This document shows, piece after piece, positions 3,823-61,915 of a stretch of DNA of 64,000 nucleotides; within the stretch, counting starts at the first letter, position 1, and each line of letters starts with the position of its first letter. Where the stretch lies: NCBI GenBank assembly GCA_964344705.1, contig CAYFOG010000002.1, positions 25,502 through 89,501 on the forward strand. Reading direction: 5' to 3'. The notes beneath the pieces are model-generated. The model was not told the origin of the DNA, did no database searches, and worked only from the letters and a program-made list of their open reading frames with translations. A program made the translations under genes and the position numbers. The DNA is from Candidatus Woesearchaeota archaeon (lineage in GTDB: Archaea; Nanobdellota; Nanobdellia; UBA10117; ARS21).

Positions 3823-4017
3823 TTACTCTGCTAATTCTACGTTTTGTGCTTGTTTCCCTCTTTCTGCATCAACTGCATCAAAGGTAACATTGTCACCCTC
3901 TCTCAAGTTCTTTTCATCTTTGATGGCTGTTTGATGTACAAAGTAATCTGTACCATCTTCACCTTCAATGAATCCGAAACCTTTTGTTGGGTTGAACCAC
4001 TTTACTGTTCCTTTCAT
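3823..4017 (-). CDS. csp: Cold-shock protein (CspA family, S1-like OB fold)
   Basis: [32 protein letters not shown] contains the RNP1-like KGFGFI and RNP2-like VHQ motifs of cold-shock domains. Start placed at the internal Met (MKGTVKWFN). Confidence 0.85.
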
Positions 4018-13732: not shown

Positions 13733-13835
13733 TCCCTCCGGCCGGAATTGAACCAGCAACCTTCCGATATCTGCTGGGACTGAATCCCAGTAACCAACTA
13801 CAGTCGGACGCTCTACCAGATTGAGCTACAGAGGG
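13733..13835 (-). tRNA. tRNA-Tyr (anticodon GTA) with a ~29-nt canonical intron after position 37
   Basis: Minus strand CCCTCTG-TA-GCTC-AATCTGGTA-GAGC-G-TCCGA-CTGTAG[TTGGTTACTGGGATTCAGTCCCAGCAGAT]A-TCGGA-AGGTT-GCTGG-TTCAATT-CCGGC-CGGAGGG-A. The intron holds the hairpin CTGGGATTCAGTCCCAG. Confidence 0.7.
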
Positions 13836-49437: not shown

Positions 49438-49441
<4 letters not shown>

Positions 49442-51249
49442 TGTACTCTCTTTTGCTTGAATTTGTCTTTCAGGTTTAGGTGTGGTCTGATTCCCATGGA
49501 TTTTAGTTGTTCAAGTAGCAACTTAAATCCGTAAGCCATTTCAACCTTGGAAACTGTTTCCTTTGGATCGACTACGCTTACAAATCTGTCTGTAAATTGA
49601 TCATATTCTGCAATATCTCCAGAACGGTCTCCGATATTAACTATGTCTTTGTCTGAACTGAATCGTTCTTTCAATAGCAATGAGGATCCGTGAGCAATTA
49701 ATGTGTCTTTTTCCATGTCTCCAAATCGAAGTCCTCCCTCCATTGCTTTACCTGCTGTAGGTTGTCGTGTTAGCAATGCAACTCTTCCTCTTGCTCTAGA
49801 TTGAATCTTGTCTGAAACTTGGTGCTTCAATCTTAGATAATAAATGTTACCTACGAAAATCTTTGCTTCGTAAGCTCTTCCTGTTCTTCCGTCGTACAAA
49901 GTTTCAGTTCCGTTTTCTCTGAAACCCAGTTCTTCCAATTCTTTTCTTAAATCTTCTGAAGGTTCTCCGCTAAATGGAGTTCCGTCAACATATCTGCCGC
50001 TCAAAGCTCCAACTTTTGCTCCGAGAGATTCAATTAAATGAGATACGGTCATACGACGCATACCAAATGGATTAAATAGAATATCTGGTACTGTTCCGGA
50101 AGAACTGAATGGCATGTCTTCAGGATTTGCAATGTGTCCAATAACTCCTTTTTGTCCGTGTCGAGAAGATACTTTGTCTCCAACACCGATTGGTCTTGTA
50201 TCTCGAACTTCAATGTTTACAAGAGGATTACCGTCTTTGGATTCAGTCAATAGAACTTTGGAAACTGTTCCGTGTTCTCCGAACTTGACTTTTACAGATG
50301 TGTCTTTTCTAATGTTTGCTGCTGTACTGAAAGTTTCAAGTCTTGAAAGGAATCTTGGAGGTGAAGTCTTACCCACAAGAACTTCTCCACCAGTTACGTG
50401 AGTTTCTGGACTGATTAATCCATCTGTATCTAGATGTCTGTAATGTCCTTCAGTTGAATATCCTTGAACATCTTTGTCTGGAACTCTGATATCATCAATT
50501 TGACCACCAGGATATCGCCGTCTTTCTGCTGCGTATGGTCGGTAGTGAGAAACTCTTGCAATACCTCTGTCGATGGATGCTCGATTAACTACAACTCCGT
50601 CAGACATGTTGTAACCTTCATAATTTAAGATTGCAATTACAACGTTTTGTCCGCCAGTGATGTGCTCACCGTACATATCTTGAGTGAATGATTTTACGAT
50701 TGGTTTTTGTGTGTAATGAAGAACGTTAACATTTGTGTCCAATCGGTTTAAATAATTTAGAGAATATAGAGAAGTTCCTTGTTGCTGATTCTTTTGTCCT
50801 CGAAGAAGACGTGTTGATGGATTGAAGTTTGCGTATGGAACCATAGATACGTTCATACCAAAAATTACAATTGGATCAATCTCTAAGTGAGTGTGCTTCT
50901 TTGTCAAATCCTTTTCGTTCATAGCAACCAGTGTTGATTCTTCTTCAAGTGCATCAATTTCTTCAACAATTCCTTTTTCAATCAAATCTGTCCAGGTCAT
51001 CTTCCCTGAGCTTAATTCTTCAATGTGTTTATTTGTTAAAAGAGATTTTCCATCTTGAATAATAATTAGTGGTCTTCGAAGTCGGTTTTTGTCAAGTTGA
51101 ATTTGAACTATGTCTTCTTCCGCATTGTAATAAATGTTTAAGTTCTTTGAAAGTTTTCCTGCTCGTCTTTCTTGGATAGTATTTTTTACAAACTTTTCTG
51201 CATCTTTTACAGTTCCGTTTAATACTCCATCAATAAATACGTAACTCAT
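49438..51249 (-). CDS. rpoB1: DNA-directed RNA polymerase subunit B' (C-terminal part of split Rpo2)
   Basis: SRHGQKGVIG, GEMERD-like GDMEKD, and a C-terminal zinc region. 603 aa. ATGA overlaps with both neighbours. Confidence 0.9.
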
Positions 51250-52739
51250 GCTTTAATTTCCTCCAAACCAAGTTTTTGTAGTCCTTTTAGATTTTTGTTA
51301 TATTCAACTTCTTTCAATTCTGTTGTAATTGTTCCAGTTAGTGCAAGAGCTTTTCTCAAACCAATATTCTTACCTTCTGGAGATTCAATTGCGCAAAGTC
51401 TTCCCCAGTGTGTTGGGTGTAGTGCTCGTGCTTCAAAAGATTCTCTGTTTGAATCAAGCAAAGATGTAACTCTTCGAAGTTGGGAAATTGCTGCAATTGG
51501 ATTGTCTCTTTCAAGTCTTTGGGAAACTCCTTGTCTGTTTCCAGTCCAATTTCCAGTTCCCATTGCTGACCGAATCTTTTCAGTCATGAACTTTGATCTT
51601 ACTAGCGATGCAATTGGAATTATTTTTCCTCGTCTAACACCTCGAGTGAAAATGTAAATTATATCGTTCTTCAAACCTTTGAAGTTTGTTCGGAACAAGT
51701 CTTCAAGAAGATCTCCAGACATTCGAATTCTTTTATTCATGTAATGGTCCTTATCATCTGGTTGAATTGTTTCTTCTCTAAGAAGTATAATTTTACGAAT
51801 CATTTGTGCAAGGAAATATGCTTTGTTCATTCTTGCTTTCTTGTCTGTTCCTAAGTGAGGTAAAAAGATTGTGTCAAGAATGGATTCAACTTTCTGAAGC
51901 TTTCTGTCTTTTGGAAGCGCAATTTGTAAACTCTTTGAAATAAATTCTTTAGCTTCTTCTTGAGTTGTTACGCTCATGAATTCAACCAAGTTAATATAGA
52001 GGTCTTCAGGGATTTCTTTGAATCCGACTGCTTCCGCGATATCTTTGTCTTTGGTCATTCCCAAAGCTTTCAAAATTACTGTGAATGGAACTTTCTTTAC
52101 ATTACTGAAACTTGTTTGAAATATTCCTTCCTTTGTTCGTTCAACTGTGTGTGAGATTTTGTAAGTGTCAATTGCTGAGAAAACTTTTGCAATGTGTGTA
52201 ACCGGTCCTGTCTTTTCTTTGTTAACTGTGATTTGATTTGGAGCCAAGTCTTCAAGCAAAACTAATGCTCGCTCAGTTCCGTTTACAATGAAATATCCTC
52301 CAGGATCCATTGGATCTTCTCCAGCTTCAATCATTTCATCTTGAGTTAATGTTGATAAGTAACAAAGTTTTGATTGGATCATTACTGGAATTTCTGCGAT
52401 TTGAACTTCTGCTCTATCTCTTTCTTTTCCGTCAACAATCAATGCAATCTCCAAGAATACTGGTGCAGAATAAGTAAGATTTCTCATTCGTGCTTCAGCA
52501 GGATAAAGCGGTCTCTCGGAACCGTCTGCTTCAATTATAACTGGCTTTCTTAAAGATAATTCAGAAAATTCAAACTTAACTTCTTCATGTTCGGCAGGCA
52601 TAACTGCCGGCATAAGTTCTTTTTGAGAATCGACAATTTTTTGCATTCTCCAGTCGACAAAGGAGTTGTAAGAATCGATATTACTTTTTACGAATCGGTG
52701 TTCTTCAAAGAATTTTTTGATGAGAATTTGTTTGTTCAT
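51246..52739 (-). CDS. rpoB2: DNA-directed RNA polymerase subunit B'' (N-terminal part of split Rpo2)
   Basis: 497 aa N-terminal Rpb2 homology (protrusion/lobe/fork). ATG at 52739 overlaps the rpoH stop. Confidence 0.9.
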   Translation of the reverse strand: MNKQILIKKFFEEHRFVKSNIDSYNSFVDWRMQKIVDSQKELMPAVMPAEHEEVKFEFSELSLRKPVIIEADGSERPLYPAEARMRNLTYSAPVFLEIALIVDGKERDRAEVQIAEIPVMIQSKLCYLSTLTQDEMIEAGEDPMDPGGYFIVNGTERALVLLEDLAPNQITVNKEKTGPVTHIAKVFSAIDTYKISHTVERTKEGIFQTSFSNVKKVPFTVILKALGMTKDKDIAEAVGFKEIPEDLYINLVEFMSVTTQEEAKEFISKSLQIALPKDRKLQKVESILDTIFLPHLGTDKKARMNKAYFLAQMIRKIILLREETIQPDDKDHYMNKRIRMSGDLLEDLFRTNFKGLKNDIIYIFTRGVRRGKIIPIASLVRSKFMTEKIRSAMGTGNWTGNRQGVSQRLERDNPIAAISQLRRVTSLLDSNRESFEARALHPTHWGRLCAIESPEGKNIGLRKALALTGTITTELKEVEYNKNLKGLQKLGLEEIKA

Positions 52740-54349: not shown

Positions 54350-54553
54350 ATGAAAGAGGTTGAGGTTATAAAACGTATAAAGTCAATTGAGGAAACTGGA
54401 GGATATCGTGCCGCATATCATATGGCTGCGAATGATCCTGAGCAGCATCTTGTAGATCAATTGAATTCTTACGTTCAACAGTTGGCTGAAGATGAGAGTG
54501 TTAGTATTTCTGAGGCAAGTGAGATTCTAGTGAGCTGGACTGCGCGTCATTAA
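54350..54553 (+). CDS. Hypothetical small acidic protein (67 aa)
   Basis: ORF upstream of tRNA-Asp. Confidence 0.3.
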   Translation: MKEVEVIKRIKSIEETGGYRAAYHMAANDPEQHLVDQLNSYVQQLAEDESVSISEASEILVSWTARH

Positions 54554-54601
54554 GTCTGTCAACGTAAAGCTTATAAATGAAATAATTTACCATGGATTTA
54601 T

Positions 54602-54676
54602 GCCCGTGTGGTGTAGTTTGGTCTATCATACAAGCTTGTCACGCTTGTGACTCGTGTTCAAATCACGGCGCGGGCG
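54602..54676 (+). tRNA. tRNA-Asp (anticodon GTC)
   Basis: Acceptor GCCCGTG/CGCGGGC. D region TGGTGTAGTTTGGTCTATCAT. Anticodon stem CAAGC/GCTTG with loop TTGTCAC. T arm TCGTG-TTCAAAT-CACGG. Discriminator G. Confidence 0.85.
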
Positions 54677-54945
54677 CTTATATTTCCACTAAAGAAATTG
54701 TTATAAACTATCTTTCGCTATCATTTTTATGGTAGAATTATCATTTTATGACGTCAAGTCAAAATCAAAATTTACAACCAGTGATTTTGAAGTCAGAGAA
54801 AAGAACGGAAGATACTTTGCTGTTTGTAAGTCTCCTGCAAAAGGTGCAACTCACGAATGCTGGAGAATTCTTTCCAAGAAACAAGCTGAAGAATTGAAAT
54901 AGTCTTCTCTCCTTTTTGTCCAAGCATAAGCATTTTATATAGCTC

Positions 54946-55236
54946 TTGGTGGGTGAAAATATGGTAAAGCCGCGCAAAGCTCACGAGGACGCGTTTAATG
55001 CGCGAGTTTCTGAATATTTTATTAACTTAATTGATAATTTTGGTGTGAGTGATCCAGAAGCCAGTGCAGCAGATATTGTTCATTATCTTGGACACAACAA
55101 TTATGCTTATACTCCAACAATCCCGGAGATGAAAACCAAACTGAAAAGACATCCAGATTTACAACACATTAAAGGAACTAAACGACCTAAGAAATATGTC
55201 TATCGGCCAAAGGACGCCCTTGAGGAAAGATTGTAA
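54946..55236 (+). CDS. Hypothetical small basic protein (96 aa; alternative start at 54961)
   Basis: ORF. Possible helix-turn-helix character, but no firm motif. Confidence 0.4.
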   Translation: MVGENMVKPRKAHEDAFNARVSEYFINLIDNFGVSDPEASAADIVHYLGHNNYAYTPTIPEMKTKLKRHPDLQHIKGTKRPKKYVYRPKDALEERL

Positions 55237-55278
55237 TTTCGATAGCTTAATATACTCTTATTTTTAAGAAATTTTGCG

Positions 55279-55749
55279 ATGGATGATTACGAAAAATTGA
55301 GAAATGAAGTTAAAGAAGTTTTAAGTGAATCAGAAGAAGTTATTGCTGGAATCAAGGCATTTCATTGTGGAGATATTGTAAATATTATTTATTCCTGTTC
55401 TGAACAACTTGGACGTGTATATACAAGTCCGGGTAACCTCGAAATGTCTCATGATGAGAAGAGAATTATGGCTGAGAATATGATTAACGAGTCTATGGAA
55501 GCTATTCTTGATGTGTCTCGGCTTGGTTTGACTTATACTGTAGATAGCACTGCGATGTTAATGTTACGTGAACGTGCTGATGAATTACGCACTTCTAAAG
55601 TATCTGGTCCAGGTCTTGAAACTGTTTTGAAGCATTATTCAAGAGATATTAGAAACTTGGCAGATTATGTTAATAAATCTAGAGATTTGAATATTAATGG
55701 TGATTCAGATCTTGGAGATACTCCGAGTTATGAGTATGAAGAAGAATAA
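55279..55749 (+). CDS. Hypothetical acidic protein (156 aa)
   Basis: ORF with a very acidic C-terminus. Confidence 0.45.
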   Translation: MDDYEKLRNEVKEVLSESEEVIAGIKAFHCGDIVNIIYSCSEQLGRVYTSPGNLEMSHDEKRIMAENMINESMEAILDVSRLGLTYTVDSTAMLMLRERADELRTSKVSGPGLETVLKHYSRDIRNLADYVNKSRDLNINGDSDLGDTPSYEYEEE

Positions 55750-55799
55750 TCGCTATACTCAACAAAGTTTTTTAATGAGTACTGTGTATAATTGAATTT

Positions 55800-56186
55800 G
55801 TGAGAGATACAGACTATAAAGAGCAGATTAGAATCAAACGTGAAAATATGCTTCCAAAGGAGGATGTTGTTTTTAATTTGGTTGCAAGCGAGCCTAGAAC
55901 TCTTGGTCAAATAAAAAATGCATTAGTTACTCACGGTCATACTGGTTCGGATAGCTCGCGAAAAGTTAGAACTTTGCTTGATCGCCTTGGAATTGTTAAA
56001 TTTCCGTTTATGTGTTCTCCAGATAAGGAAGGAAACAAGGAAACTTGGGGCTGGAAATATGGTTTGTTGGATAGAATTTTAGAAGATTTTAACAACGCTC
56101 CAGATGACTGTAGTTATATTAATCGAACTTCTTGGTATCTCCGACAAACTCTTGGAGATATTTTTTATCGCGCCTTGGAACAATGA
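55800..56186 (+). CDS. Putative winged-helix DNA-binding protein (128 aa)
   Basis: VFNLVASEPRTLGQIKNALVTHGHTGSDSSRKVRTLLDRLGIV looks like an H2-H3-wing pattern. Stop overlaps the start of the EEP gene (ATGA). Confidence 0.4.
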   Translation: MRDTDYKEQIRIKRENMLPKEDVVFNLVASEPRTLGQIKNALVTHGHTGSDSSRKVRTLLDRLGIVKFPFMCSPDKEGNKETWGWKYGLLDRILEDFNNAPDDCSYINRTSWYLRQTLGDIFYRALEQ

Positions 56187-56842
56187 AAGTATTAAACTGG
56201 AATACTCACCCGAATAATAATCGAACTTCTCAGGCGTTAGATATGTTTGATGATTTATCTCCGGACGTTATAACTTTGCAAGAAGTTTCTCCAGGATTTT
56301 TTGATGAACTTGAATTATATGCGCACGATAATTCCTTGCATATTGACAGAACTTTGGATTGGATACGTAAAGAGACACCTTATTATTTAGTGACTATGCT
56401 GGGATCCTCTGCAATTTCTCAGAGTGTTCCTTATGAAATTAGAAGGAATGGTCTGGTCGCTAGATCAATTGGGTGGCAGGAAACTTTGAATTTTTCAGTT
56501 TCAACCTCGGAACATCAGACGGTTCTTAATGGTCATTTGGAACATCATGCTGGTCCAATAACGCGGAGGAAGCAATTGAATGAAATGCTATCTTATTTGA
56601 GTGGGGGAACAAATGTTATGGGTGTTGACTTGAATCAATGGTTTCCTTTTGAGAAAGGAAGAAATGCAAGATTGTTGAAGAAATATAATTTGACGGACAT
56701 TGTTAAGGGAGGAACGATTGGAAATGGATTATGCCTTGATGGAATCATCGTTAGTGAAGATCTAGCTCAAAGAGATTATGATTTTGAGAAGCAAGGGCGC
56801 TGTGGTTCTGATCATTATCCTCTTTTTGTTGAATTTTATTAG
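56183..56842 (+). CDS. Endonuclease/exonuclease/phosphatase (EEP) family protein
   Basis: Start at MKVLNWN (typical EEP N-terminus). TLQEV, and the terminal GSDHYPLFVEF (SDHxP catalytic His motif). Confidence 0.7.
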   Translation: MKVLNWNTHPNNNRTSQALDMFDDLSPDVITLQEVSPGFFDELELYAHDNSLHIDRTLDWIRKETPYYLVTMLGSSAISQSVPYEIRRNGLVARSIGWQETLNFSVSTSEHQTVLNGHLEHHAGPITRRKQLNEMLSYLSGGTNVMGVDLNQWFPFEKGRNARLLKKYNLTDIVKGGTIGNGLCLDGIIVSEDLAQRDYDFEKQGRCGSDHYPLFVEFY

Positions 56843-56883
56843 CTAGAATTATTGCTAAGTGAAACCCTTATAACCGTTGAATA

Positions 56884-57324
56884 TTGGGAATTTATATGGT
56901 TACAGATAGACTCGAGCCTCCAGTAACTCGTAAATCCCTTACTAATGCAATTGTTAAGGCTGTTGGCATGTCTGAAGAAGAATATGTTTCAGCGGAAGCT
57001 ATGGCTGACCATTTATTGGGTTTCTTTGGATATCAGGATCGAGTTATTGATAATCTACTAGAACCTACAGACAGAAATGTTTTTTACCAATTTCAAGATT
57101 TGGGGATTCTTGCTTCTGAGAGTGAGGAAACCGAGTTATGGGATGGTCGAGAATGGCGAATTCATTACTGGAAAATTAAAACTGACCGAGTGTTGAATTC
57201 TGACTTCTTTGATAAAGGAGAAGTGCTTGATGAGGTTGTTGATATTTATTCTCAATTATCCGATGAATGTTGGGGAATTGAGACTTACAATGATGATGAT
57301 TCTTGGCTTCCGCCTGAGGAATAA
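56884..57324 (+). CDS. Hypothetical acidic protein (146 aa)
   Basis: ORF between the EEP and helicase genes, same strand. Confidence 0.45.
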   Translation: MGIYMVTDRLEPPVTRKSLTNAIVKAVGMSEEEYVSAEAMADHLLGFFGYQDRVIDNLLEPTDRNVFYQFQDLGILASESEETELWDGREWRIHYWKIKTDRVLNSDFFDKGEVLDEVVDIYSQLSDECWGIETYNDDDSWLPPEE

Positions 57325-57391
57325 TTTGATTAATACTAGACATCCGACAAATCAAATAAACCATTATAAATTAAGTCAGTAGTTTATTTTT

Positions 57392-59476
57392 GTGGAATTG
57401 TTTGTATTATTCAAATCATATTTAGAAGTTCTTCGTGAACATCACGCTTCAATTAATTCAGGTCGTAGAAGTTATGGTGAAGTTAGTTCTGTTGAAGATT
57501 TTGGGAACTATTTGATTGTTGGAATTAAGTTGATTGACCGCAAGGTTAAATTTCAGTCATCGGAACGAGTTTTGGTTGACGAAGGTGATGCGATTGTTGA
57601 ACACTATCGAAAGGGAAAATATTATTTCAGAGTTCGCCCAGATGTTGATTTTTCTCAAGGTTCAAAAGTATTAGTTAGTTCAACTTCGGATTTGGTTTTC
57701 TTGGTTGACAATATGTTGAAGAATCTTGATGATGTTGAAAAATCTAAAGAATACTCTGATTTTGTTGAGAATCTTTATTCTGAAGAAAATAATGAAGCTT
57801 GGCAAATTGAAAGTATTGGGACTCTTGTTGGAAATGGTTTTACTGAAAGTCAGAGTGCAGTTATTTCAACTGCATTGAGTTTGTTGAATTTGGAGAAGGG
57901 TCTTGTTCCAGTTGAAGGTCCGGGAGGTTCTGGAAAGACAGAATGTATTGCGGAGATTTGTAAGCAGTGTATTAAATTGAAGAAACGCGTTTTGGTTTGT
58001 TCTGCTACAAATCTGGCTATTGATAATGTTTTGAGTAAGCTTCTTGATGAGGATGGTGTTTTGAGAATCGGTTCTGACACTTCTATTGAACGTCCTGAGG
58101 TGAAAAAATTTTCATTGAAAAATAAATTGGGAAAGAAATTTGATTATGATGAAATTGTTAGCGAGTCTTTTGTAATTGGTTCTACAATTGATTCCGCAGG
58201 AATTCATTTGAAACAGGAAGAGTTTGATTTGGTTATTATTGATGAAGCTTCCACGGTTGAGCTTCCTAAACTTTTGATTGCATTGATGAAAAGTAAACGA
58301 GTTTTGGTTTGTGGAGATACTCAACAATTAAGTCAGTTTATTGAACAGCGAGTTTTGGAGAAACTTGGTGCCGAAATTCCTGAAGAGGAATTAATTACTT
58401 TGCAGCGTTCTCCGTTTGATCTGATTTCCAAAAAATGGGCTTCGGTTGAAAAGACTCTGTACTTGCGAGATAATTTCAGAAATTCTAAACAGGTCTTTGA
58501 ATTCATTAATGAAAATTTTTATGAGGGCCGGATGCTCTTTAAGTCGGGCCGTGAGTTTGATGGACGGAAAGCAAAGTCGCTTCCTGAAGTTTCAAAGGCA
58601 GATGAAATAACTTGGATTGTTCCACACAATTCTGATTTAGAGTTAGAGAATCGTGGAATATTTAATCCGGTTAAATTCTCAAACGGATTTAGAAATTCAT
58701 ATTTTAATTATGGAAATTTAATATTGGTTGTGACAATGCTTAAGGAATTGTTGAAGACTTATTCTCCAAAAGAGATTGGAATTATTTCTCCGTTCAATGC
58801 TCAAGTTTCTTTGATGCGTGAGTTCATTATTCGATTTCCAGAATATATTTTGGATAGAAAATACAAAGACGAATTAGAAAAGACTAAGCTTGGATTTTAT
58901 TTATTAAACAGTTTGAACATTAATACAATTAACAAGTTTCAGGGTCAGGAAAGAGATGCAGTAATTTTTGACTTTACAAGTAATGCAGATTTTCTTTTTA
59001 GAGATTATAAGAAGCTAAATGTTGTCCTTGGTCGTTCAAAAAAGCAAATCATTTTGGTTGGTCTTCCTCCGCGGAGCCCAGTTTATCAGAATTTGTTTGA
59101 AGCATCTACAACTTATGGAGATGTTGATTTGGCCGAGTATTCTCTGGCGTTTACTATGAATGATGAAGATGTTGCTGAATTCAAGCGTGTTCGTGATTTG
59201 GTTTTATCAATAAAGGATTCAGATTTTTCACCGCGAGATATTGAGGAACACCTAAAGAAAGAACTTGTAAATACTGTTGTTGAAAAATATAAGAAGGATG
59301 TTGCTGTTTTTGGATTAGGTAAGGCAATTAATGACGTAGTTTCTGACACGTTGCGGGAGTTTTTTTCCATGGAAGTTGTTGATGACAAAACTTATGATAC
59401 ATTAGATAATGAAATTGATTTGAAAGTTAAAGAACTTATTCATCAGAAAAAACAAGGACCTTTGTTTGGATTTTAA
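57392..59476 (+). CDS. Superfamily-1 (Upf1/DNA2-like) helicase with N-terminal beta-rich domain
   Basis: Motif I GPGGSGKT. Motif II IIDEAS. Motif III VLVCGDTQQLSQF. Motif V NKFQGQERDAVIFDF. Motif VI VVLGRSKKQIILVG. 694 aa. Confidence 0.75.
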   Translation: MELFVLFKSYLEVLREHHASINSGRRSYGEVSSVEDFGNYLIVGIKLIDRKVKFQSSERVLVDEGDAIVEHYRKGKYYFRVRPDVDFSQGSKVLVSSTSDLVFLVDNMLKNLDDVEKSKEYSDFVENLYSEENNEAWQIESIGTLVGNGFTESQSAVISTALSLLNLEKGLVPVEGPGGSGKTECIAEICKQCIKLKKRVLVCSATNLAIDNVLSKLLDEDGVLRIGSDTSIERPEVKKFSLKNKLGKKFDYDEIVSESFVIGSTIDSAGIHLKQEEFDLVIIDEASTVELPKLLIALMKSKRVLVCGDTQQLSQFIEQRVLEKLGAEIPEEELITLQRSPFDLISKKWASVEKTLYLRDNFRNSKQVFEFINENFYEGRMLFKSGREFDGRKAKSLPEVSKADEITWIVPHNSDLELENRGIFNPVKFSNGFRNSYFNYGNLILVVTMLKELLKTYSPKEIGIISPFNAQVSLMREFIIRFPEYILDRKYKDELEKTKLGFYLLNSLNINTINKFQGQERDAVIFDFTSNADFLFRDYKKLNVVLGRSKKQIILVGLPPRSPVYQNLFEASTTYGDVDLAEYSLAFTMNDEDVAEFKRVRDLVLSIKDSDFSPRDIEEHLKKELVNTVVEKYKKDVAVFGLGKAINDVVSDTLREFFSMEVVDDKTYDTLDNEIDLKVKELIHQKKQGPLFGF

Positions 59477-59484
59477 AAAATATA

Positions 59485-59512
59485 ATGCCCCGGCAAGGGG
59501 CATACGTTTTTA
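59485..59512. terminator. Hairpin ATGCCCC-GGCAA-GGGGCAT followed by a T-tract, between convergent genes
   Basis: Perfect 7-bp GC-rich stem immediately after the helicase stop, then ACGTTTTTA. Archaeal terminators are oligo-T based. Confidence 0.4.
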
Positions 59513-59518
59513 TCGAGA

Positions 59519-59692
59519 TTATAAATCTCGTGACTGAACTGTCTTTCTACCGTTTGCTTGTGCGCGTGTTACTGCATCTTTTACAAGAGCAGATACTCTT
59601 TCGCTAAGTGCGTCAGAGAAATCTCCAGCACAGTTGCATCCGGAATCTCGGACAGCCTGTCTAACTGCGTTTTGTACAACTAATCTTGCCAT
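59519..59692 (-). CDS. Candidate 57-aa histone-fold protein; not in the ORF track because it is under 60 aa
   Basis: Minus-strand ATG at 59692 to TAA at 59519 gives MARLVVQNAVRQAVRDSGCNCAGDFSDALSERVSALVKDAVTRAQANGRKTVQSRDL. The ...ANGRKTVQSRDL segment matches the histone-fold L2/alpha3 signature (archaeal HMf ...ARHAGRKTIKAEDIELA). Confidence 0.4.
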   Translation of the reverse strand: MARLVVQNAVRQAVRDSGCNCAGDFSDALSERVSALVKDAVTRAQANGRKTVQSRDL

Positions 59693-59774
59693 AAACCATG
59701 GTATAGGCGCTGATTTAAAAGCTTTTTGAGTACAGAGCTCAGAAAGGTATTTTATAAGGGTTTCAAGAGCGTTT

Positions 59775-60143
59775 TTATTTGACTTTCTTAACCCAATATA
59801 TTTGTGTCACTGCAAGAAGTTCTGCGAATCCCAATAACAATTGAGGTTGGAGAAAATACTCTTGTAAAGGAACCTTGATGAACAGAGGTACGCTTATTAT
59901 TGCATCAAGAAAAATTCCTGTGCCTAAAAATATCAGTCCCACTTTCCATCCAGAAGTTTTGTCTTTCTTTGTGTAATATAATGACGAACCAAACCATACA
60001 ATTAATGCTAATAAAATATAATGGATAGACCACTGTAGTGTTACTAAATCTTTCAAGGTCGGAGTAAAAACCATCACTGACCAGATTACAAAGATTAGCG
60101 CCCATATTAATGTACCAACACCGATTGCTCTAAGTGGTTTCAT
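59775..60143 (-). CDS. Small membrane protein (122 aa, 4 TM helices)
   Basis: Hydrophobic Trp-rich helices. No family assigned. Confidence 0.45.
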   Translation of the reverse strand: MKPLRAIGVGTLIWALIFVIWSVMVFTPTLKDLVTLQWSIHYILLALIVWFGSSLYYTKKDKTSGWKVGLIFLGTGIFLDAIISVPLFIKVPLQEYFLQPQLLLGFAELLAVTQIYWVKKVK

Positions 60144-61805: not shown

Positions 61806-61915
61806 TGCCCGAGAAGAGATTTGAACTCTTGACCTCTGCATTATTGGCGCAAGTCAATCCGCGAAGATTCTTTGCGATACCAATGCAGCGCTCTACCATA
61901 CTGAGCTACCCAGGC
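61806..61915 (-). tRNA. Intron-containing tRNA, provisionally tRNA-Thr (anticodon GGT) with a ~36-nt intron
   Basis: Minus strand GCCTGGG-TA-GCTC-AGTATGGTA-GAGC-G-CTGCA-TTGGTA[TCGCAAAGAATCTTCGCGGATTGACTTGCGCCAATA]A-TGCAG-AGGTC-AAGAG-TTCAAAT-CTCTT-CTCGGGC-A. The anticodon call depends on the exact intron boundaries. Confidence 0.55.

What the first reader, a model, noticed from the sequence alone, without database searches (positions are those of the whole stretch)
54602..59700. tRNA-Asp-proximal cluster: winged-helix proteins, EEP nuclease, acidic ORFans and an Upf1-like SF1 helicase, a candidate nuclease-helicase module
Immediately 3' of tRNA-Asp lies a same-strand run of genes: two small possibly DNA-binding proteins, an acidic ORFan, a winged-helix protein whose stop overlaps the start of an EEP-family nuclease (MKVLNWN...GSDHYPLFVEF), another acidic ORFan, and a 694-aa SF1B helicase with all Upf1/DNA2-type motifs (GPGGSGKT, DEAS, GDTQQL, QGQERD). 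Nuclease plus Upf1-like helicase pairings are the architecture of several anti-phage systems (for example Nhi-type nuclease-helicase immunity) and of RNA-surveillance or repair machines. The position next to a tRNA gene and ahead of a convergent terminator hairpin fits an accessory islet. I found no integrase and no tRNA 3'-end direct repeat, so it is not a classical integrated element.
Basis: partly seen in the sequence, partly recalled or inferred. Interest (0 to 1): 0.65.

Follow-up and report, generated by a model that had tools for sequence, protein, structure and literature searches.

The report
Archaeal helicase beside small nuclease operon
This stretch of a marine DPANN (Woesearchaeota-type) archaeal chromosome carries a real Upf1-like helicase and a real, intact EEP-type nuclease, but they look like separately transcribed, vertically inherited neighbours of different ages and not a mobile or known anti-virus nuclease-helicase system.

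Summary
The 694-aa protein is a complete Upf1/IGHMBP2/Dna2-like SF1B helicase. The 219-aa protein is a divergent EEP enzyme with every catalytic residue conserved, and its start overlaps the stop of the upstream 128-aa gene.

The second "acidic ORFan" is Pfam DUF6015, an extended winged-helix protein shared with Marine Group II archaea. The winged-helix call for the 128-aa protein could not be confirmed.

The helicase is an old gene of this lineage: orthologues down to 41% identity exist in six GTDB species. The clades at 67%, 55% and 41% identity carry it without the EEP. The 128-aa/EEP pair is a younger two-gene operon, found in two clades only.

Within the window's clade the order g57, g156, g128, EEP, DUF6015, helicase, histone-fold gene is the same in every contig recovered. 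Each unit has its own TATA-like box. I found no integrase, att repeat or viral relative. The only PADLOC matches are to the generic helicase core.

Best reading: conserved synteny of independent housekeeping-type nucleic-acid enzymes. A true nuclease-helicase module is possible but unproven. Interest is low to moderate.

The parts
54602..54677 (+). tRNA-Asp(GTC). It lies next to the Na+/Ca2+ exchanger gene and the RNA polymerase operon. This adjacency is conserved in relatives, including the clade with the 67% identical helicase.
   Evidence: ARAGORN; Rfam (53.3 bits); relatives.
54729..54902 (+). g57: 57-aa basic protein (pI 9.3), very strongly conserved. It is 91-98% identical in relatives, with dN/dS 0.015-0.03. 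No family match; function unknown, and DNA binding is only a guess.
54961..55236 (+). g96: 91 aa from the ATG, a basic protein. It sits on an insertion of about 316 nt that four close relatives lack. It has its own TATA-like box and is seen only in strain-level copies.
   Evidence: (no tblastn hit in any locus).
55279..55749 (+). g156: 156-aa acidic protein (pI 4.55). It is confined to the window's clade and is the fastest-evolving gene of the cluster, at 38-79% identity and dN/dS 0.27-0.58. No family match.
55800..56186 (+). g128: 128-aa protein that always lies immediately upstream of the EEP gene, abutting or overlapping it in most loci (6-78 nt apart in three). Invariant residues include H47, C72-S-P-D, P101-D, C104 and the YINRT motif. 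A winged-helix fold is not confirmed. Predicted partner subunit of the EEP enzyme.
   Evidence: g128 lies directly upstream of the EEP in 13 of 13 metagenome loci and in L027.
56183..56842 (+). EEP-superfamily enzyme, 219 aa. The catalytic set is fully conserved: N7, E34, H118, D149, N151, D186, D210, H211. The family is small and divergent, and its nearest distant relatives are YafD/ExoIII-like proteins.
56896..57324 (+). DUF6015 (PF19479) protein: an extended winged-helix core plus an acidic C-terminal tail (pI 4.2). It has its own promoter-like element, TGAAACCCTTATAA. It is about 50% identical to Marine Group II archaeal DUF6015.
57392..59476 (+). Upf1-like SF1B helicase, 694 aa. Motifs I, Ia, II, III, IV, V and VI are intact. 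The N-terminal 150 aa and the C-terminal 135 aa are conserved across the whole family. The family is narrow: 26 protein clusters and 6 GTDB species.
59485..59503 (.). GC-rich palindromic hairpin (ATGCCCCGGCAAGGGGCAT) between the convergent helicase and histone-fold genes. It is flanked by T-runs on both strands.
59519..59692 (-). his57: 57-aa histone-fold-like protein, convergent with the helicase. It is 89-98% identical in the clade and 75% identical in L027. JGI names it 'histone H3/H4'.
   Evidence: (CBFD_NFYB_HMF E = 0.009, below cutoff).

Best explanation
This region is a vertically inherited chromosomal neighbourhood of a marine Woesearchaeota/Nanoarchaeota-type DPANN archaeon. It is built from independent transcription units of different evolutionary ages. 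It is not one system.

**Unit 1: the helicase.** It is an old, lineage-wide Upf1/IGHMBP2/Dna2-like SF1B helicase with its own promoter. It is paired convergently with a histone-fold gene. Inferred: an ATP-driven 5'-to-3' translocase on single-stranded RNA or DNA that serves the host's own nucleic-acid metabolism.

**Unit 2: g128 plus EEP.** This is a younger two-gene operon whose two genes overlap or abut in most loci. The EEP keeps the full catalytic set. Inferred: a Mg2+-dependent phosphodiesterase that processes nucleic-acid ends or lesions, in the manner of ExoIII, TDP2 or YafD. Inferred: g128 is its obligate targeting or regulatory partner.

**Unit 3: DUF6015.** An extended winged-helix protein with an acidic tail, shared with Marine Group II archaea.

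**Other genes.** g57, g156 and the strain-specific g96 are additional small genes.

**Shown:** the gene families, the catalytic residues, the operon structure, the synteny and its phylogenetic limits, and purifying selection.

**Inferred:** substrates, polarity, and the absence of a physical link between the EEP and the helicase.
For: **Organism**
- Archaeal: split RpoB, RpoH, and tRNAs longer than usual that only Rfam detects.
- Relatives are named Woesearchaeota or Nanoarchaeota MAGs.

**Helicase**
- AAA_11 scores 91 bits and AAA_12 scores 87 bits, both against a gathering threshold of 27.
- The closest solved relatives are DNA2, IGHMBP2, Upf1 and Sen1.
- The full length is conserved down to 41% identity.
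- dN/dS is 0.08-0.12, similar to the neighbouring Na/Ca exchanger at 0.05-0.07.
- Orthologues at 67%, 55% and 41% identity have no EEP, g128 or DUF6015 at their locus.
- The neighbour-joining tree is ((window clade, 67% clade), L027), L001, L002.

**EEP**
- All catalytic residues are invariant in 15 sequences.
- A profile search reaches 143 proteins. All ten top hits tested pass the Pfam Exo_endo_phos threshold.
- The predicted fold matches TDP2, ExoIII, APE1 and Mth0212.
- g128 lies directly upstream in every locus found, and their coding regions overlap or abut in most.

**Promoters**
- Separate TATA-like boxes lie upstream of g57, g96, g156, g128, DUF6015, the helicase and his57.

**Synteny**
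- Gene order is fixed in all contigs of the window's clade: L007-L013, L021-L023, L030-L032 and L034-L043.

**Absence of mobility or defence signals**
- No defence-family hits apart from the generic helicase core.
- No viral relatives.
- No att repeats.
Against: - The g128-EEP pair lies within 1.3-2 kb upstream of the helicase in two separate clades, those with >=80% and 61% helicase identity. This family's EEP was never found away from this neighbourhood. That could reflect a functional link and not mere synteny.
- The EEP-side genes evolve markedly faster than the flanking core genes. g156 dN/dS reaches 0.58 and g128 reaches 0.39. One population variant has a broken EEP gene (L011). These are traits often seen in accessory or conflict genes.
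- No substrate evidence exists for either enzyme.
- The second half of the EEP model is of low confidence: mean pLDDT 68, and below 50 for residues 151-211.
- Complete genomes of the clades without the EEP were not available, so loss could not be told apart from relocation.
Confidence: 0.55

Rival explanations
1. The genes form a true but non-defensive nuclease-helicase module. The helicase would unwind or strip a nucleic-acid substrate, and the g128-EEP enzyme would process it. Candidate roles are DNA repair (AP-site or blocked-end processing) or RNA turnover. The winged-helix DUF6015 would act as an adaptor. This would be a lineage-specific housekeeping pathway of a reduced DPANN genome.
For: - The EEP pair and the helicase are neighbours in two clades separated by about 39% helicase divergence.
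- All members are under purifying selection.
- The EEP fold class includes repair enzymes and RNA-end enzymes: ExoIII, APE1, TDP2 and ANGEL2.
- RNA-metabolism genes recur in the same interval in relatives. These are a DEAD-box helicase in L010, L021-L024 and L030, and a cold-shock-domain protein between the EEP and the helicase in L027.
Against: - The helicase persists without the EEP in three clades.
- The units have separate promoters.
- Unrelated membrane and cold-shock genes sit between the EEP and the helicase in L027.
- DUF6015 is absent from L027. In Marine Group II archaea it lies next to a surface protein, not a helicase.
- Synteny among related small genomes is expected even without a functional link.
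Confidence: 0.25
2. The block is a new anti-virus defence system of DPANN archaea. A Upf1-like helicase would sense foreign nucleic acid and an EEP nuclease would act as effector. It would be analogous to Mokosh, Nhi, Gabija or Hachiman.
For: - A nuclease plus an SF1 helicase is the general logic of several defence systems (bioRxiv 10.1101/2022.05.11.491447, read).
- The best PADLOC and NCBIfam side hits of the helicase are to MkoA, MkoC, PLuB and Hhe helicase cores.
- g156, g128 and the EEP evolve fast.
- The tRNA-flanked interval differs in content between clades.
- One variant carries a broken EEP.
Against: - No defence model matches the EEP, g128, g156 or DUF6015.
- The helicase hits cover only the generic core.
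- The block is present in every member of the clade with identical order. It is not patchy.
- The helicase has core-gene-like constraint and deep orthology.
- No neighbouring known defence genes, no mobility genes and no viral homologues were found.
Confidence: 0.1
3. The block is the decayed remnant of a mobile element that integrated at tRNA-Asp, with its integrase and att sites now lost.
For: - It lies next to a tRNA gene.
- g96 is a strain-specific insertion of about 316 nt.
- DUF6015 appears to be shared with Marine Group II archaea at about 50% identity, which hints at horizontal acquisition.
Against: - There is no integrase, no repeat of the tRNA 3' end, and no GC or skew break relative to the flanks.
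- There are no viral or plasmid-type genes.
- The tRNA-Asp/Na-Ca exchanger adjacency and the helicase both predate the block.
Confidence: 0.05

Closest known systems
Upf1-like SF1B helicases (Upf1/NAM7, IGHMBP2/SMUBP-2, Sen1, and the Dna2 helicase domain)
   Same: - Pfam AAA_11 plus AAA_12 architecture above threshold.
- All seven helicase motifs are present.
- The best solved relatives by profile are DNA2 (2e-24), IGHMBP2 (8e-24), Upf1/NAM7 (1e-20) and Sen1.
- The N-terminal 150 aa occupies the position of the stalk and 1B-barrel region of IGHMBP2. Query residue 152 aligns to chain residue 192.
   Different: - Only 25-31% identical over 40-60% of its length to any helicase outside its own 26-cluster family.
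- Below the TIGR00376 (IGHMBP2 family) cutoff, at 161 against 349 bits.
- No CH domain, no R3H domain and no Dna2 nuclease domain.
- It has a conserved, acidic, helical C-terminal extension of 135 aa with no match anywhere.
EEP superfamily enzymes: ExoIII/Xth, APE1, Mth0212, TDP2 and the uncharacterised YafD-like family (PRK05421)
   Same: - N- and C-terminal signature motifs align to ExoIII.
- All catalytic residues are conserved.
- Foldseek top hits are TDP2, ExoIII, APE1, Mth0212 and NExo, with probability 1.00.
- Distant sequence relatives score as YafD-like or Xth-like.
   Different: - Short, at 219 aa against about 250-270.
- Below the Pfam gathering score on its own, at 16.6 against 24.5 bits.
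- Far below the Xth equivalog cutoffs.
- Always paired with a private 128-aa partner gene.
- Restricted to two small DPANN clades.
Mokosh anti-phage system (MkoA/MkoB, MkoC)
   Same: It contains a COG1112/Upf1-like helicase. PADLOC MkoA is the best defence-library hit of the helicase at 1.8e-45. A nuclease gene lies nearby.
   Different: - Mokosh is defined by a PLD-family nuclease, and in type I by a Ser/Thr kinase domain on the helicase protein (10.1101/2022.05.11.491447). Here the nuclease is an EEP, and neither a PLD nor a kinase domain exists.
- The hit covers only positions 771-1074 of the 1112-position profile.
Nhi / Nhi-like nuclease-helicase immunity
   Same: The general idea of nuclease plus SF1 helicase.
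   Different: - Nhi is a single protein with an N-terminal nuclease fused to a DUF2075 (PF09848) helicase.
- Here the nuclease is a separate gene two genes upstream.
- PF09848 scores only 16.9 bits against a threshold of 24.
DUF6015 (PF19479) of Marine Group II / Poseidoniales archaea
   Same: Scores 113 bits against a threshold of 27. The core of about 60 residues is near-invariant (GFFGY..R.IDN.LEP.DRN.FYQ.QD...L..ESEET.LWDGREWRIHYW).
   Different: - In Marine Group II it is a fixed-synteny gene beside arginase, AdoMetDC and deoxyhypusine synthase genes and a ~1000-aa surface protein.
- Here it sits between an EEP gene and a helicase.
- It has a different C-terminal tail, WLPP instead of EEPLF.

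Membership tests
Upf1-like SF1B helicase (Pfam AAA_11 + AAA_12) | Both Pfam domains score above their gathering thresholds | tested here: met
   AAA_11 scores 91.3 bits and AAA_12 scores 87.5 bits, against a gathering threshold of 27 for each.
Upf1-like SF1B helicase (Pfam AAA_11 + AAA_12) | Conserved motifs I (GxGKT), II (DEAS/DExx), III (GDxxQL), IV, V (QGxE) and VI (arginine finger) | tested here: met
   GPGGSGKT at residue 176, DEAS 284, GDTQQL 308, NFRN 361, QGQERD 517 and VLGRSKK 545. All are invariant or nearly so in 14 orthologues.
Upf1-like SF1B helicase (Pfam AAA_11 + AAA_12) | 5'-to-3' ATP-dependent unwinding of RNA or DNA | not testable with these tools
   Needs biochemistry.
IGHMBP2-family helicase (NCBIfam TIGR00376) | Whole-protein score above the curated cutoff | tested here: not met
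   161.4 bits against a cutoff of 348.9. The match covers only residues 253-557.
Dna2 nuclease-helicase | N-terminal PD-(D/E)XK nuclease domain (PF08696/PF12705) fused to the helicase | tested here: not met
   No such domain was found in the Pfam scan of the 694-aa protein. Only the helicase part (query residues 165-481) aligns to DNA2 structures.
EEP superfamily (Pfam PF03372 Exo_endo_phos) | Pfam gathering score | tested here: not met
   16.6 bits against 24.5, from the N-terminal 50 residues only. Membership therefore rests on the next three rows.
EEP superfamily (Pfam PF03372 Exo_endo_phos) | Catalytic residues: Asn and Glu for metal binding, the DxN motif, Asp, and the SDH motif with its Asp-His pair | tested here: met
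   N7, E34, H118, D149, N151 and D186 are invariant, and D210 and H211 nearly so, in 15 sequences. Both termini align to ExoIII motifs.
EEP superfamily (Pfam PF03372 Exo_endo_phos) | Transitive homology to bona fide members | tested here: met
   The profile finds 143 proteins at E <= 1e-3. Ten of ten top hits tested pass the PF03372 threshold.
EEP superfamily (Pfam PF03372 Exo_endo_phos) | Four-layer alpha/beta sandwich fold | tested here: inconclusive
   The AF2 model has pLDDT 68 and pTM 0.74. Foldseek top 50 hits are all EEP enzymes with probability 1.00, but TM-scores are only 0.4-0.55 and the C-terminal third is poorly modelled.
Mokosh defence system | PLD-family nuclease partner or domain | tested here: not met
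   No PLD domain in any of the 10 proteins scanned. There is no MkoB hit in PADLOC. The definition comes from 10.1101/2022.05.11.491447.
Mokosh defence system | Full-length match to MkoA or MkoC, including the kinase domain in type I | tested here: not met
   The MkoA hit covers only profile positions 771-1074 of 1112. There is no kinase domain.
Nhi / Nhi-like | A single polypeptide with an N-terminal nuclease and a DUF2075 (PF09848) helicase | tested here: not met
   PF09848 scores 16.9 bits against a threshold of 24. The nuclease is a separate gene.
DUF6015 (PF19479) | Pfam gathering score | tested here: met
   113.1 bits against 27, E = 1.8e-32. There are 755 homologues.
tRNA-integrated mobile element / genomic island | Integrase or recombinase gene | tested here: not met
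   None among the ORFs at 54350-60143.
tRNA-integrated mobile element / genomic island | Direct repeat of the tRNA 3' end (attL/attR) | tested here: not met
   No repeat family includes the tRNA-Asp region.
tRNA-integrated mobile element / genomic island | Variable presence among close relatives | tested here: not met
   The g57 to helicase block is present, in the same order, in all contigs of the clade. Only g96 and the slot between tRNA-Asp and g57 vary.
Winged-helix DNA-binding protein (claimed for the 128-aa protein) | Detectable winged-helix domain by profile or fold | tested here: inconclusive
   No Pfam, PHROGs or PDB profile hit. By contrast, DUF6015 does model as an extended winged helix.

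The most novel reading that the evidence does not exclude
The g128-EEP operon, the winged-helix DUF6015 protein and the private Upf1-like helicase together form a previously undescribed, chromosomally fixed nucleic-acid surveillance system specific to DPANN archaea. In this reading the helicase recognises and unwinds foreign or aberrant RNA or DNA, and the EEP enzyme cleaves it or processes its ends. The system would be inherited vertically, because these episymbionts have few other defences.
Probability: 0.15. Interest if true: 0.55.

Novelty: new member of a known kind. Interest (0 to 1): 0.3.

Why it matters
If the ordinary reading is right, the result is mainly a useful correction. A nuclease next to a Upf1-like helicase beside a tRNA is not enough to call a defence islet. 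Comparative synteny can separate an old core helicase from a younger neighbouring operon.

The analysis still defines three uncharacterised items that are cheap to test:
- A narrow, full-length-conserved SF1B helicase family confined to marine Woesearchaeota/Nanoarchaeota.
- A minimal 219-aa EEP enzyme that always travels with a private 128-aa partner.
- DUF6015, shown here to model as an extended winged helix and to be shared between DPANN and Marine Group II archaea.

The last item could bear on gene exchange, or on a host-symbiont relationship, between those two groups.

Tried and rejected
- **PADLOC, NCBIfam, Pfam and PHROGs scans of all cluster proteins**. No defence or viral family was found beyond generic helicase-core hits.
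- **Viral-contig scans with the helicase and EEP alignments**. Nothing was found.
- **Search for att-like repeats**. Only short chance-level repeats appeared. One 14-nt inverted match turned out to be a shared promoter-like element.
- **Sigma-70 promoter scan**. It is not informative for an archaeon, with 22 sites found against 19.9 expected. I used manual inspection of TATA-like boxes instead.
- **Test of whether the large gene next to DUF6015 in Marine Group II is a cryptic helicase**. It is not. It is a surface protein with a signal peptide and a C-terminal membrane anchor.
- **Profile-against-PDB searches for g128, g57, g96 and DUF6015**. No meaningful hits. The augmin and rusticyanin matches are chance-level.
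- **Literature search for DUF6015**. Zero papers.
- **Search for archaeal Upf1-like helicase studies**. Nothing specific.
- **tblastn of relatives' DEAD-box, HD, DUF7672, 208-aa and second EEP genes against the window**. All are absent from these 64 kb. The only match was a cold-shock gene at 3838-4017.

Full report
**1. What is in the sequence**

The window is archaeal. It carries a split RpoB (497 + 603 aa) and an RpoH, and two of its tRNAs are longer than usual (103 and 110 nt) and detected only by Rfam. GC content is an even 34-39% across the region, with no compositional break.

tRNA-Asp(GTC) lies at 54602-54677. Downstream, all on the + strand, lie:

| Gene | Coordinates | Notes |
|---|---|---|
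| g57 | 54729-54902 | basic |
| g96 | 54961-55236 | basic |
| g156 | 55279-55749 | pI 4.55 |
| g128 | 55800-56186 | |
| EEP | 56183-56842 | 219 aa; its ATG overlaps the g128 stop (ATGA) |
| DUF6015 | 56896-57324 | acidic |
| helicase | 57392-59476 | 694 aa |

A GC-rich hairpin (59485-59503) separates the helicase from a convergent 57-aa histone-fold-like gene at 59519-59692.

**2. Protein identities**

*Helicase.*
- It passes Pfam AAA_11 and AAA_12 at 91 and 87 bits.
- Its profile hits DNA2, IGHMBP2, Upf1/NAM7 and Sen1 structures.
- All SF1B motifs are invariant in 14 orthologues.
- It falls below the IGHMBP2-family cutoff, at 161 against 349 bits.
- It has no nuclease, CH or kinase domain.

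*EEP.*
- Alone, it is sub-threshold in Pfam, at 16.6 against 24.5 bits.
- Its 15-sequence alignment keeps N7, E34, H118, D149, N151, D186, D210 and H211.
- Its profile reaches 143 distant proteins. All ten top hits tested are above-threshold Exo_endo_phos members, of the YafD or Xth type, some from Patescibacteria.
- Its AF2 model (pLDDT 68) hits only EEP enzymes: TDP2, ExoIII, APE1 and Mth0212.
- It therefore looks catalytically competent. The subfamily, and hence the substrate, cannot be assigned.

*The 'second acidic ORFan'.*
- It is Pfam DUF6015, at 113 bits, with 755 homologues.
- Most homologues come from Marine Group II/Poseidoniales archaea and are about 50% identical.
- Its model (pLDDT 77.5; about 90 in the core) is an extended winged helix. 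The best structural matches are the TFIIE-alpha and Pol III C82 winged-helix domains and PadR-type regulators. These matches are borderline, at E ~1e-3 and TM ~0.4.

*The remaining small proteins.* g128, g156, g57 and g96 match nothing in Pfam, NCBIfam, PADLOC, PHROGs or PDB. The 'winged-helix' label for g128 is unverified.

**3. Comparative genomics**

This is the decisive part of the analysis.

*The helicase family is small.* It comprises 26 protein clusters and 6 GTDB species, all Woesearchaeota or Nanoarchaeota MAGs. Conservation spans the full length from 100% down to 41% identity.

*The window's clade.* In every contig with >=80% helicase identity (L007-L013, L021-L023, L030-L032, L034-L043) the gene order is g57, g156, g128, EEP, DUF6015, helicase, his57(-). 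The block lies next to tRNA-Asp, a Na/Ca exchanger gene and the RNA polymerase operon.

*The other clades.*
- At 67% identity (L004-L006, L024, L025), 55% (L001) and 41% (L002, L026), the helicase is present but none of the upstream genes is.
- In the 67% clade the helicase is inverted. It sits between the same tRNA-Asp and tRNA-Leu genes, next to a DEAD-box helicase.
- A further clade (L027, L028; helicase 61%) keeps g128-EEP, still abutting. There the EEP is 67% and g128 40% identical to the window's copies. Here a cold-shock gene and two membrane-protein genes replace DUF6015 between the EEP and the helicase.

*Tree.* The helicase tree is ((window clade, 67% clade), L027), L001, L002. The simplest history is as follows:
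1. The helicase is the oldest component.
2. The g128-EEP pair became its neighbour before L027 split off.
3. The pair was lost or displaced in the 67% clade.
4. DUF6015, g156 and g57 were added in the window's clade.

*EEP context.* A metagenome scan for the EEP found 13 family members. In every one, g128 lies directly upstream, and none sits in a different context.

**4. Selection and transcription**

| Gene | dN/dS against relatives |
|---|---|
| g57 | 0.015-0.03 |
| Na/Ca exchanger | 0.05-0.07 |
| helicase | 0.08-0.12 |
| EEP | 0.14-0.22 |
| DUF6015 | 0.06-0.29 |
| g128 | 0.19-0.39 |
| g156 | 0.27-0.58 |

All are real genes. The EEP-side genes are less constrained than the helicase.

Each gene except the EEP has an A/T-rich TATA-like box, roughly 20-45 nt upstream of its start codon. 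DUF6015 and his57 share an identical 14-mer, TGAAACCCTTATAA. Only g128-EEP is an obvious operon.

**5. Tests of the defence or islet idea**

- PADLOC hits exist only for the helicase, and they are partial. MkoA matches at profile positions 771-1074 of 1112, along with MkoC, PDC-S37 and Hhe.
- Mokosh requires a PLD nuclease, and type I also a kinase domain. Nhi is a single protein with a nuclease fused to a DUF2075 helicase (paper 10.1101/2022.05.11.491447). None of these features is met here.
- No integrase and no att repeat were found, nor any relatives on viral contigs or in PHROGs.
- What does vary lies around the cluster. The slot between tRNA-Asp and g57 holds a DEAD-box helicase in most relatives, DUF7672 plus a 208-aa gene in L007, and nothing in the window. 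g96 is an insertion of about 316 nt unique to this strain.
- The interval is therefore plastic over longer time, but the EEP and helicase core behave as fixed chromosomal genes.

**6. Conclusion**

*Best explanation, confidence 0.55.* The region is a conserved neighbourhood of independent units:
- an old Upf1-like helicase serving host nucleic-acid metabolism;
- a younger g128-EEP phosphodiesterase operon;
- a winged-helix DUF6015 gene, possibly acquired from or shared with Marine Group II archaea.

*Rivals.*
- A real but non-defensive nuclease-helicase pathway: 0.25.
- A new vertically inherited defence system: 0.10.
- A decayed integrated element: 0.05.

The families themselves are known, so this is a new member of known kinds. 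The private helicase clade, the minimal EEP with its obligate partner, and the fold and distribution of DUF6015 are modest new facts. Interest is 0.3.

Noticed in passing
window 54904-55236 (g96, 54961-55236): A 91-aa basic protein gene with its own TATA-like box sits on an insertion of about 316 nt, between the g57 stop and the g156 promoter. Four close relatives lack the insertion. No target-site duplication is visible, and only strain-level copies exist in the protein collection.
   Followed up: partly
window 56896-57324; loci L014-L020: DUF6015 of this DPANN clade is about 50% identical to the Marine Group II (Poseidoniales) DUF6015. In that group it is a fixed-synteny gene beside arginase, AdoMetDC and deoxyhypusine synthase genes and a ~1000-aa surface protein. 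This suggests gene exchange between the two phyla or unusually strong constraint. The fold models as an extended winged helix resembling that of TFIIE-alpha.
   Followed up: partly
window 54678-54728; L010 6157-7593, L007 6645-7477, L030 4595-6031: The slot between tRNA-Asp and g57 is variable. It holds a 478-aa DEAD-box RNA helicase in most relatives and a DUF7672 gene plus a 208-aa gene in L007. In the window it is only 51 nt. The DEAD-box gene is absent from the whole 64-kb window.
   Followed up: partly
window 56860-56873 and 59752-59765: The identical 14-mer TGAAACCCTTATAA lies upstream of DUF6015 (+ strand) and further upstream of the histone-fold gene his57 (- strand). It is probably a shared BRE/TATA promoter element.
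   Followed up: no
window 59519-59692 (-): A 57-aa histone-fold-like protein, which JGI names 'histone H3/H4'. Its Pfam CBFD_NFYB_HMF match is sub-threshold. It is 89-98% conserved in the clade and always convergent with the helicase. It is shorter than a canonical archaeal histone.
   Followed up: no
window 61806-61915 (-) and 13733-13835 (-): Two tRNA matches of 110 and 103 nt were found by Rfam but missed by ARAGORN. They probably carry introns.
   Followed up: no
window 49438-52739 (-); L001 15798-19121: RpoB is split into two genes (497 + 603 aa) in the window's clade and in the 67% clade. In the 55% clade (L001) it is a single 1107-aa gene.
   Followed up: no
L011 8781-9450 compared with L010 8785-9450: In one population variant the EEP gene is broken into 81-aa and 139-aa ORFs, while a near-identical contig is intact. 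This is either a sequencing error or evidence that the EEP is dispensable.
   Followed up: no
L027 3547-5148: The peptide IDLSEYDGSVGSFW occurs in both a 145-aa gene and the C-terminal extension of the g128 homologue two genes downstream. This is a trace of local duplication or recombination. A second, 298-aa Exo_endo_phos gene lies about 2.7 kb downstream of that helicase.
   Followed up: no
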